Shown: piece after piece, positions 45,766-46,009 of the stretch
Position numbering within the stretch: position 1 is the stretch's first letter
Layout: every line of letters starts with the position of its first letter
Origin: Candidatus Firestoneibacteriota bacterium
Lineage (GTDB): Bacteria > Oederibacteriota > Muellerivitia > Muellerivitales > Muellerivitaceae
DNA length: 64,000 bases
NCBI GenBank assembly: GCA_013286205.1
Contig: JABDGD010000009.1
Coordinates: forward strand, 3,759-67,758
Direction of reading: 5' to 3'
Position numbers and translations under genes: made by a program
The notes under the pieces: model-generated
The model's database searches: none
What the model saw: only the letters and a program-made list of their open reading frames with translations
Told to the model about the DNA's origin: nothing

Positions 45766-45781
45766 AGCAAGAACGGTGCCA
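45766..45781 (-). promoter_or_regulatory. Sigma-54 (-24/-12) promoter
   Basis: The minus strand reads TGGCACCGTTCTTGCT, a perfect match, 63 nt upstream of ATG 45704. Confidence 0.85.
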
Positions 45782-45851
45782 CGAAAAGAAATGTCGAAAG
45801 GCCCTGTTTATGGCAAACGGGAACTCAAAAGAAGATATTTGTTTTTTCCAA

Positions 45852-45884
45852 TCAAAATGATGCGGTCCATTTTTTTCATTTTGA
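45852..45884. promoter_or_regulatory. Candidate EBP enhancer (UAS) dyad shared by divergent promoters
   Basis: TCAAAATGA-N15-TCATTTTGA is an exact inverted 9-mer pair with starts 24 bp apart. It lies between promoters 45766 (-) and 45994 (+). Confidence 0.65.
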
Positions 45885-45993
45885 TACTTCGGAACGGCCA
45901 GAAAGCTCGAGATCAAAACGATCTTTTTATTCTCATTGTGGTTTGTAAAAGTCAGGCCGCTTCCCAAATCATTCATTAAAGCCTTTAATTCAG

Positions 45994-46009
45994 TGGCTTG
46001 TTTCTTGCT
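45994..46009 (+). promoter_or_regulatory. Sigma-54 (-24/-12) promoter
   Basis: TGGCTTGTTTCTTGCT. The listed GTG 46014 lies before the predicted start site, so the gene must begin downstream at ATG 46128. Confidence 0.65.

What the first reader, a model, noticed from the sequence alone, without database searches (positions are those of the whole stretch)
45766..46009. Four back-to-back sigma-54 promoter pairs, each sharing one central dyad
At four loci two sigma-54 promoters face away from each other with a single TCAnnnTGA dyad between them. These are 21028(-)/21191(+) with dyad 21106-21135, 45766(-)/45994(+) with dyad 45852-45884, 53402(-)/53571(+) with sites 53481-53540, and 58810(-)/59004(+) with dyad 58878-58906. 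The -24 to -24 distances are 148, 213, 154 and 179 bp. One bound EBP oligomer could contact closed complexes on either side. That architecture is rarely described for sigma-54, and here it is repeated four times.
Basis: seen in the sequence. Interest (0 to 1): 0.6.

Follow-up and report, generated by a model that had tools for sequence, protein, structure and literature searches.

The report
Shared enhancers between divergent sigma-54 promoters
Four gene-free spacers in this uncultured bacterium each hold two outward-facing sigma-54 promoters around a shared activator-binding repeat, a known kind of switch, used here unusually often and in a fixed lopsided layout.

Summary
The four promoter pairs are real, at the stated coordinates and spacings (148, 213, 154, 179 bp). 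All eight promoters score above anything in a reversed-genome control.

The central element is an inverted repeat, ATCAAAAYGA-N11-15-TCRTTTTGAT. It is the enhancer of a sigma-54 stress regulon whose XylR_N/V4R-type activator gene lies at 48602-50221.

One correction: the headline locus (45766-46009) holds two repeats, one per promoter. The other three hold one.

The layout recurs at four more places in this genome. A motif-blind census of 31 related genomes of candidate phylum FCPU426 found 64 good pairs. In orthologous spacers only the two promoters and the repeat halves are conserved. A shared enhancer is therefore well supported, though untested at the bench.

It is not "rarely described": zraP/zraSR, hycA/hypA, orp1/orp2 and VnfA1 targets have the same design.

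What is new is the stereotypy:
- 55 of 64 pairs combine one canonical promoter (GGCAY/GGTAY) with one GGCTYG-type promoter.
- In a one-locus-per-genome sample, the GGCTYG-type sits about 85 bp from the repeat and the canonical one 116-133 bp.
- The repeat itself is polar.

Verdict: a new variant of a known kind, of moderate interest.

The parts
45766..45781 (-). Sigma-54 promoter, canonical type (TGGCACCGTTCTTGCT). It drives the 1123-aa DUF7948/SBBP protein (42333-45704) and the OmpA-domain gene downstream.
   Evidence: 26.2 bits
45851..45885 (.). Enhancer repeat 1, ATCAAAATGA-N15-TCATTTTGAT with perfect arms. It lies 94.5 bp from the 45766 promoter centre and 133.5 bp from the 45994 promoter centre.
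   Evidence: 38.7 bits
45912..45942 (.). Enhancer repeat 2, weaker (ATCAAAACGA-N11-TCATTGTGGT). It lies 74.5 bp from the 45994 promoter centre.
   Evidence: 25.0 bits. Two repeats are also present in the related spacers L018 and L043.
45994..46009 (+). Sigma-54 promoter, GGCTYG type (TGGCTTGTTTCTTGCT). It drives the pirin-like gene (46128-46916) and the REC-GGDEF gene (46956-48473).
   Evidence: the same 16-mer precedes pirin-like genes in several genera; 28.2 bits
21028..21043 (-). Sigma-54 promoter, canonical type (CGGTACGGAAGTTGCT). It drives the 91-aa Transgly_assoc (GlsB/YeaQ-like) gene at 20698-20973.
   Evidence: conserved in G001 and G002
21105..21136 (.). Single enhancer repeat, CTCAATTTGA-N12-TCATTTTGAT, 85 and 78 bp from the two promoter centres.
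21191..21206 (+). Sigma-54 promoter, GGCTYG type (TGGCTTGCTTCTTGCT). It drives the outer-membrane barrel gene 21246-21824 and a co-directional gene series that ends in the 2954-aa ORF at 24209-33073.
53402..53417 (-). Sigma-54 promoter, canonical type (GGGCACATTCCTTGCT). It drives the Zn-ribbon gene (52691-53365), the CHASE3-PAS-GGDEF gene (51101-52627) and the VTT/DedA gene (50434-51081).
53480..53510 (.). Single enhancer repeat, CTCAATATGA-N11-CCATTTTGAT, 85.5 and 83.5 bp from the two promoter centres.
53571..53586 (+). Sigma-54 promoter, GGCTYG type (CGGCTTGTTTCTTGCT). It drives the 69-aa DUF2934 gene at 53647-53856.
58810..58825 (-). Sigma-54 promoter, canonical type (GGGCATGGTACTTGCT). 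It drives the DUF5670 peptide (58622-58777), a DUF2934 gene (58275-58625) and a BON gene (57995-58246).
58877..58907 (.). Single enhancer repeat, ATCAAACTGA-N11-TCGTTTTGAG, 74.5 and 119.5 bp from the two promoter centres.
59004..59019 (+). Sigma-54 promoter, canonical type (CGGTATGTAACTTGCT). It drives the Cys-rich membrane protein gene (59064-59333) and the CsbD-like gene (59336-59623).
   Evidence: orthologous promoter and leader in G001
48602..50221 (-). Gene of the probable cognate activator, with domains XylR_N, V4R, sigma-54 AAA+ and HTH_8.
   Evidence: orthologues and paralogues across the family

Best explanation
Each of the four spacers is a bidirectional control region of one sigma-54 regulon of small stress, envelope and c-di-GMP genes, in a MAG of candidate phylum FCPU426.

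Proposed mechanism, with shown and inferred steps marked:
- The inverted repeat ATCAAAAYGA-N11-15-TCRTTTTGAT is the enhancer (upstream activating sequence). This is inferred.
- It is bound by the XylR_N/V4R-type activator encoded at 48602-50221, and probably also by its paralogue on contig C30, whose HTH region is nearly identical. This is inferred.
- RNA polymerase with sigma-54 sits in closed complexes on both outward-facing promoters. The repeat centre lies roughly 90-150 bp upstream of each inferred start point. The positions are shown; the complexes are inferred.
- On activation the ATPase ring assembled on the repeat loops to either promoter and opens it, presumably one at a time. Both transcription units would then respond to the same signal. 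This is inferred.

Three loci use one repeat for both promoters. The longest spacer (45766-46009) has two repeats, one per promoter.

Across the bacterial family the module is stereotyped and lopsided:
- One GGCTYG-type promoter lies about 85 bp from the repeat, on the side whose half-site is followed by G or A.
- One canonical GGCAY/GGTAY promoter lies about 75-133 bp away, on the side whose half-site is followed by T.
- The long arms carry phased A and T tracts that could bend the DNA or bind an HU/IHF-type protein.
For: Promoters:
- GG and GC are spaced correctly. The sites lie 35-120 nt before start codons and on the right strand.
- They are enriched over shuffles and over a reversed-genome control.
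- rpoN is present once in this genome.

Enhancer:
- Every repeat of at least 24 bits in the genome has a sigma-54 promoter 64-226 bp away.
- 24 of 35 strong promoters have a repeat upstream.
- Repeat-to-promoter distances fall in classes with a 10.25-11 bp period; the Rayleigh R of 0.39-0.42 corresponds to p below 1e-5.
- An activator with an HTH_8 domain is encoded inside the island, and three HU/IHF-family genes are present.

Sharing:
- There is one repeat only in loci 1, 3 and 4.
- Both arms use the same distance classes as unidirectional promoters.
- Of the genome's repeats that lie between divergent genes, 8 have promoters on both sides and 2 on one side.
- Orthologous locus-1 spacers of three species conserve only the two promoters and the repeat halves, while total length varies (179, 210, 166 bp).
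- The locus-3 layout is kept in the same-genus genome G001, with a different partner operon.

Census:
- 64 good pairs were found in 20 of 31 family genomes without using the repeat as a search criterion.
- In 16 one-per-genome pairs other than the window's own locus 2 (which has two repeats), exactly one repeat lies between the promoters.
Against: - There is no transcript, footprint or reporter evidence.
- The activator-repeat assignment rests only on co-location and co-occurrence.
- Two paralogous activators exist, so which one acts is unknown.
- The headline locus has two repeats, so sharing is not needed there.
- The promoter and half-site matrices were trained on this genome's own sites.
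- The counts from relatives are not corrected for shared ancestry.
- No match to the E. coli IHF consensus was found in any arm.
Confidence: 0.7

Rival explanations
1. The two promoters of each pair are regulated independently. Each has its own activator site, and the pairs merely abut because regulon genes happen to lie head to head.
For: Locus 2 has two repeats, each at a standard distance (94.5 and 74.5 bp) from its own promoter. The same two-repeat layout occurs in related spacers L018 and L043. Longer spacers on C3 and C23 carry an additional strong half-site.
Against: Loci 1, 3 and 4, the C23:17606 and C30 pairs, and 16 of 17 one-per-genome pairs in relatives have only one repeat of at least 12 bits between the promoters.
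Confidence: 0.13
2. One member of each pair, most likely the non-canonical GGCTYG-type element, is not a working promoter. The regions would then be ordinary one-way sigma-54 control regions.
For: The GGCTYG type lacks the A and C that follow GGC in the usual consensus. In this genome it is found only opposite another promoter.
Against: - The 16-mer TGGCTTGTTTCTTGCT is almost invariant in front of pirin-like genes in several genera, while its surroundings diverge.
- It always faces a gene at 40-150 nt.
- It also occurs alone with its own repeat in relatives (10-11 cases).
- It keeps a tight 83-93 bp distance to the repeat.
Confidence: 0.07
3. The repeat is bound by some other protein (a repressor, a nucleoid protein or another activator), not by the XylR_N/V4R activator encoded in the window.
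For: No binding data exist. The half-site contains ATCAA, which resembles the core of the E. coli IHF consensus. The genome encodes other sigma-54 activators (one search lists further AAA+ matches).
Against: - The repeat has two-fold symmetry and lies about 90-150 bp upstream, not between enhancer and promoter.
- It co-occurs with orthologues and paralogues of this activator in relatives, and 3-5 strict repeats per genome cluster near them.
- No full IHF consensus was found.
Confidence: 0.1

Closest known systems
zraP / zraSR control region of E. coli and Salmonella (activator ZraR/HydG)
   Same: Two outward-facing sigma-54 promoters about 150 bp apart: the sigma-54 sites lie at 4199755(-) and 4199909(+) (PMC4591121). 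Both are controlled by one activator (PMC4987338), and the genes respond to envelope stress.
   Different: - ZraR is a two-component response regulator encoded in one of the two operons. Here the activator is a one-component XylR_N/V4R protein with its own promoter.
- Both E. coli promoters are canonical GGCAC/GGCAT. Here the pairs are mostly one canonical and one GGCTYG type.
- There is one such locus per genome there, against at least 8 here.
hycA / hypA (FhlA) spacer of E. coli
   Same: Back-to-back sigma-54 promoters 128 bp apart (PMC4591121), with FhlA as the common activator (PMC4987338, table).
   Different: From memory, FhlA sites lie on both sides of hycA rather than as one central repeat. 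Both promoters are canonical, and it is a single locus.
orp1 / orp2 operons of Desulfovibrio vulgaris (activator OrpR/DVU2106) with IHF
   Same: Divergent sigma-54 operons are co-activated by one activator bound to palindromic sites. IHF sites lie between the palindromes and the promoters (PMC3897727).
   Different: There are two palindromic sites, and IHF sites matching the E. coli consensus. Here there is usually one repeat, no IHF-consensus match, and only phased A/T tracts in the long arms.
VnfA1 targets of Azotobacter vinelandii
   Same: One activator has two separate spacers that each contain divergent sigma-54-dependent promoters under a single ChIP-seq peak (PMC9542535). This shows repeated use of the layout within one regulon.
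   Different: Two loci there, against about half of the regulon's enhancers here. No promoter-type asymmetry is reported there.
XylR/DmpR-type activators and their upstream sites
   Same: The activator here has the same domain order: XylR_N, V4R, AAA+, HTH_8.
   Different: Known members control aromatic catabolism from one-way promoters. Here the targets are stress, envelope and diguanylate-cyclase genes, and the enhancers are often two-way.

Membership tests
Sigma-54 (-24/-12) promoter | GG and GC doublets exactly 10 nt apart within a TGGCAC-N5-TTGCW-like 16-mer | tested here: met
   All eight sites meet it. Three of them (21191, 45994, 53571) read GGCTTG instead of GGCAC.
Sigma-54 (-24/-12) promoter | Lies in non-coding DNA, on the strand of the downstream gene and a short leader away | tested here: met
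   Leaders are 35-120 nt long.
Sigma-54 (-24/-12) promoter | The organism encodes sigma-54 | tested here: met
   rpoN lies at G000:C18:18008-18484. There is a single copy in almost all (26) of 29 family genomes that have it.
Sigma-54 (-24/-12) promoter | Transcription starts about 12 nt downstream of the GC and depends on sigma-54 | not testable with these tools
Enhancer (upstream activating sequence) of a bacterial enhancer-binding protein | A site with dyad symmetry about 80-150 bp upstream of sigma-54 promoters, recurring across one regulon | tested here: met
   High-scoring repeats number 33 in the genome against 7 in the reversed control at 16 bits.
Enhancer (upstream activating sequence) of a bacterial enhancer-binding protein | Bound by a cognate activator through its C-terminal HTH | not testable with these tools
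   A candidate gene with HTH_8 lies in the island. Binding was not tested.
Enhancer (upstream activating sequence) of a bacterial enhancer-binding protein | Face-of-the-helix dependence of its distance to the promoter | tested here: inconclusive
   A periodic signal at 10.25-11 bp was found. The sample is not phylogenetically independent, and the 126-133 bp class straddles half a turn.
Shared enhancer between divergent sigma-54 promoters (zraP/zraSR, orp1/orp2 type) | Two outward-facing sigma-54 promoters within about 300 bp, with the activator site(s) between them | tested here: met
   Four loci in the window and four more in the genome meet it.
Shared enhancer between divergent sigma-54 promoters (zraP/zraSR, orp1/orp2 type) | Both promoters depend on the same activator and the same site(s) | not testable with these tools
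   This is inferred from single-repeat spacers and from conservation.
XylR/DmpR family of activators | Domain order XylR_N, V4R, sigma-54 AAA+, HTH_8 | tested here: met
   XylR_N 5.7e-24, V4R 7.5e-09, Sigma54_activat 4.7e-70, HTH_8 4.6e-14.
XylR/DmpR family of activators | Responds to aromatic effectors and controls catabolic operons | tested here: not met
   The target genes are small stress proteins, outer-membrane barrels, diguanylate cyclases and similar. The effector was not tested.

The most novel reading that the evidence does not exclude
The two-way enhancer of this family may be a directional device rather than a symmetric dyad. Its two half-sites differ: a G or A follows one half and a T follows the other. 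The G/A side always faces a weak-looking GGCTYG-type promoter at a fixed distance of about 85 bp. The T side faces a canonical promoter, typically at about 128 bp across a pair of phased A/T tracts.

Selection appears to keep one promoter of each type per module. 55 of 64 pairs are mixed. In one orthologous operon the promoter has the opposite type in G000 and G001, in each case the opposite of its partner's type.

On this reading, a single activator ring divides its output between two operons in a built-in ratio or order. That would be a layer of sigma-54 control not described for the known divergent pairs.
Probability: 0.3. Interest if true: 0.65.

Novelty: new variant of a known kind. Interest (0 to 1): 0.4.

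Why it matters
Sigma-54 promoters are the bacterial counterpart of enhancer-driven transcription. How one enhancer-bound ATPase ring chooses between two promoters has been studied only in single cases, mainly in well-studied model bacteria (Proteobacteria and Desulfovibrio).

Here an uncultured phylum supplies dozens of natural variants of one two-way module, with measurable rules:
- about 85 bp from the repeat on one side and typically about 128 bp (range 75-133) on the other;
- two promoter types;
- a polar repeat.

These rules turn the question of whether an enhancer is shared, and how its output is split, into a compact design-and-test problem. It can be addressed with short synthetic spacers in laboratory strains.

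The finding also shows that much of a general-stress-like gene set in this lineage is wired through sigma-54 in head-to-head operon pairs.

If the lopsidedness turns out to be only inherited history, the finding is an ordinary, well-conserved example of a known switch.

Tried and rejected
- **Two sigma-54 paralogues as the cause of the two promoter types.** Rejected. There is one rpoN in this genome and in almost all (26) of the 29 family genomes that have one.
- **The spacers as copies of a mobile or repeated element.** Rejected. The four spacers share nothing beyond the 16-mers and half-sites.
- **IHF sites of the E. coli consensus WATCAR-N4-TTR in the arms.** None was found in 100 arms. Only phased A/T tracts appear in long arms.
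- **The search for related loci on genome contigs.** It gave only one true relative. It supplied the phylum name but little else.
- **Outer-membrane-barrel gene of locus 1 as a query.** It has too many paralogues to trace orthology. Synteny with G001 and G002 was used instead.
- **Zn-ribbon gene orthologues.** Many lack any sigma-54 promoter, so regulon membership of that gene varies.
- **The promoter matrix at 12 bits.** It is noisy (50 real hits against 28 in the reversed control), so thresholds of 16-18 bits are the ones to trust.

Full report
**1. What is in the sequence**

The window is C9:3759-67758 of a 2.23-Mb, 76-contig, 67%-complete assembly. Its nearest named relative is a MAG labelled candidate division FCPU426.

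They sit on the stated strands, in non-coding DNA, 35-120 nt before start codons.

- GGYN7TTGCW occurs 21 times in the window against 10.5 +/- 3.2 in dinucleotide shuffles, and no shuffle of 100 reached 21.
- With a stricter regular expression, 15 of the genome's 97 hits lie in the window, which is 2.9% of the genome.
- A position matrix built from this genome's sites gives the eight promoters 19.7-28.2 bits. At 18 bits or more the genome has 28 hits and the reversed (not complemented) genome none. The matrix was trained on these sites, so the scores are partly circular. The regular-expression counts are not.
- rpoN is present.

**2. The central element**

The element is an inverted repeat, ATCAAAAYGA-N11-15-TCRTTTTGAT, with half-site centres 21-25 bp apart.

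- Repeats of at least 16 bits number 33 in the genome against 7 in the reversed control.
- Every repeat of at least 24 bits has a sigma-54 promoter 64-226 bp away.
- 24 of the 35 strongest promoters have a repeat upstream.
- The same repeat precedes one-way promoters in the window, at 20503, 37478, 39136, 50292 and 56421.

It is therefore the common enhancer of one regulon. The activator gene in the island (48602-50221) has XylR_N, V4R, sigma-54 AAA+ and HTH_8 domains. Earlier notes of this scan reached the same view of the activator and the repeat. I re-derived both independently.

The regulon genes flanking the four spacers encode the following:
- a GlsB/YeaQ-like peptide, outer-membrane barrels, and a co-directional gene series ending in a 2954-aa ORF;
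- an SBBP/DUF7948 giant with an OmpA-domain partner;
- a pirin-like protein with a REC-GGDEF protein;
- a Zn-ribbon protein with a CHASE3-PAS-GGDEF protein and a DedA protein;
- DUF2934, DUF5670, BON and CsbD proteins, and a Cys-rich membrane protein.

**3. One repeat or two?**

I scanned the spacers for half-sites of at least 5 bits.

| Locus | Repeat(s) | Distance from repeat centre to the (-) and (+) promoter centres |
|---|---|---|
| 1 | 21105-21136 | 85 and 78 bp |
| 3 | 53480-53510 | 85.5 and 83.5 bp |
| 4 | 58877-58907 | 74.5 and 119.5 bp |
| 2 (headline) | 45851-45885 (perfect arms) and 45912-45942 (weaker) | first repeat 94.5 bp from the (-) promoter; second repeat 74.5 bp from the (+) promoter |

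So 'one central dyad' holds for three of the four loci.

**4. More than chance, and more than four**

- Genome-wide there are eight outward-facing promoter pairs. Four are in the window. The others are at C3:27719/27996, C23:17606/17763, C23:19804/20090 and C30:15971/16131.
- There are no face-to-face or same-strand pairs in the same distance range, and none of any kind in the reversed genome.
- The chance of a second 12-bit promoter on the correct strand within 215 bp of a repeat is about 0.002.
- Where a repeat lies between divergently oriented genes, 8 regions have promoters on both sides and 2 on one side. In one of those two the neighbouring gene starts too close to the repeat for a promoter. 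In the other a terminator-like hairpin intervenes.
- The four window spacers share no sequence beyond the motifs, so they are not copies of a repeated element.

**5. Conservation**

- *Locus 1.* The activator has orthologues at about 75% identity, and often several paralogues, in many genera of the family. In the two other species of the same genus, the locus-1 spacer keeps both promoters and the repeat while everything else diverges. Its length changes too (179, 210 and 166 bp from promoter to promoter). The repeat-to-promoter distances are 85/78, 108/86 and 75/75 bp. The architecture is conserved; the exact spacing is not.
- *Locus 3.* The Zn-ribbon operon keeps a two-way spacer in G001, but its partner there is the Cys-rich/CsbD operon. 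In the window that operon is the right-hand unit of locus 4. Partners are therefore reshuffled between species.
- *Pirin-like genes.* They are usually next to an activator paralogue. In several genera they carry the almost invariant 16-mer TGGCTTGTTTCTTGCT, about 84 bp from a repeat, often with a divergent promoter on the far side.
- *Regions around activator paralogues.* In twenty 13-20-kb regions from eight relatives, about 15 of 38 repeats are two-way.
- *Strict-pattern sample.* In three near-complete genomes, 6 of 12 repeats are two-way.

**6. A motif-blind census**

I searched the 31 family genomes for AGCAA-N8-CC, then 125-217 nt, then GG-N8-TTGCT. This pattern says nothing about the repeat or about the bases after GG.

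- Of 95 places, 64 in 20 genomes have two 16-mers of at least 12 bits.
- The inner distance peaks at 186-205 bp, with a mode of 198-199 bp.
- Compact pairs like window loci 1 and 3 are mostly confined to the window's own genus.
- In the 17 good pairs taken roughly one per genome, every pair has exactly one repeat between the promoters, except the window's locus 2, which has two.

This is the strongest computational support for a shared enhancer.

**7. Geometry**

Distances from repeat centre to promoter centre were pooled over the genome and the relatives (113 arms). They fall into a broad class at 63-108 bp, with a peak at 75-88 bp, and a sharp class at 125-134 bp. The periodic signal is strongest at 10.25-11 bp.

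Two-way modules use the same classes as one-way ones. The long arms carry an A-tract (GAAAAT) about 40-47 bp from the repeat centre and a T-tract at about 65-74 bp. The short arms do not.

No arm matches the E. coli IHF consensus. Three HU/IHF-family genes are present in the genome. These counts are not corrected for shared ancestry.

**8. An unexpected regularity**

The promoters fall into two types:
- canonical: GGCAYGTTCCTTGCT or GGTAYGGAACTTGCT, with an A two bases after GG;
- GGCTYG type: for example TGGCTTGTTTCTTGCT.

Evidence that the pairs are mixed:
- In the census, 55 of 64 pairs contain one of each type, 7 are canonical/canonical and 2 are GGCTYG/GGCTYG. Random pairing would give 31.8 mixed pairs (binomial p = 2e-9, uncorrected for ancestry).
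- In this genome, six pairs are mixed and two are canonical/canonical. All one-way promoters are canonical.
- The GGCTYG-type promoter sits 83.5-93 bp from the repeat, and the canonical partner 116-133 bp.

The repeat is also polar. The base just inside the half-site is T on the side facing a canonical promoter (48 of 57). It is not T, and mostly G, on the side facing a GGCTYG-type promoter (34 of 48; Fisher p = 1e-8). In the one-per-genome sample the figures are 15/15 and 14/15. The three mixed loci of the window obey the rule.

The orthologous Zn-ribbon promoter is canonical in this genome, where its partner is GGCTYG-type. It is GGCTYG-type in G001, where its partner is canonical.

Two sigma-54 paralogues cannot explain the two types, because the family has one rpoN per genome.

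I cannot tell whether the lopsidedness is functional or inherited. Possible functions would be balancing a near, weak promoter against a far, strong one, or orienting ring assembly.

**9. Comparison with what is known**

The architecture is established:
- E. coli sigma-54 ChIP-seq places the zraP/zraS sites 154 bp apart and the hycA/hypA sites 128 bp apart, in opposite orientation (PMC4591121).
- OrpR with IHF co-activates the divergent orp1/orp2 operons (PMC3897727).
- VnfA1 has two spacers with divergent sigma-54 promoters under one ChIP peak (PMC9542535).
- From memory, the Caulobacter flbG/flaN spacer with ftr elements is another case.
- Earlier notes of this scan list the same layout in several other phyla. 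These are leads only.

What differs here is the frequency (about half of the regulon's enhancers), the one-component XylR_N/V4R activator, and the mixed-type, polar module. The known E. coli pairs are canonical on both sides (PMC4591121).

**10. Verdict**

- The shared-enhancer reading is well supported by comparative evidence but has not been tested functionally.
- The kind of switch is known. The stereotyped lopsided version is, as far as I could find, new.
- Confidence in the main explanation is 0.7 and interest is 0.4.

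Noticed in passing
window 21191, 45994, 53571; G000 C3:27996, C23:17763, C30:15971; relatives: There are two sigma-54 promoter types. Back-to-back pairs are mostly one canonical (GGCAY/GGTAY) plus one GGCTYG type: 55 of 64 in a family census. In this genome the GGCTYG type occurs only in pairs.
   Followed up: yes
window 21105-21136, 45851-45885, 53480-53510; relatives L134-L153: The enhancer repeat is polar. The base just inside the half-site is T on the side of the canonical promoter and G or A on the side of the GGCTYG-type promoter (Fisher p = 1e-8, uncorrected for ancestry).
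   Followed up: yes
window arms 20519-20640 and 56437-56555; 27 long arms in relatives: Arms of 124-135 bp carry an A-tract (GAAAAT) about 40-47 bp from the repeat centre and a T-tract about 65-74 bp from it. Short arms do not. This may be a bend or a site for an HU/IHF-type protein. No E. coli IHF consensus is present.
   Followed up: partly
window 53400-59020 versus L113:11308-11502 (G001:C61): In the same-genus genome G001 the Zn-ribbon operon (left of locus 3) is paired around one repeat with the Cys-rich/CsbD operon (right of locus 4). The roughly 5.4 kb between the two window spacers is absent there. The Zn-ribbon promoter has switched from the canonical type to the GGCTYG type.
   Followed up: partly
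G000 C30:13526-15136 (+) and C30:15226-15924 (-): A second XylR_N/V4R activator (70% identical; sensor part 61%, HTH part 78% with a nearly identical recognition region) lies next to a second pirin-like gene and a two-way spacer. The activator/pirin-like adjacency is conserved in many relatives.
   Followed up: partly
relatives listed (e.g. G005:C5:174194, G003:C2:1807976, G044:C4:584214, G042:C17:3913): Several pirin-like gene matches next to activator genes are reported with one or two in-frame stop codons. I did not check whether these are pseudogenes or alignments running past the true gene ends.
   Followed up: no
G000 C49:5880-5915: A terminator-like G+C hairpin followed by a T run lies immediately upstream of a perfect repeat (C49:5934-5962) that has a promoter on one side only.
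   Followed up: no
window 20503-62216: At least 16 sigma-54 promoters lie in about 42 kb. That is 16 of the 35 strongest sites of the assembly in 2.9% of its length, so the window is the core island of the regulon.
   Followed up: partly
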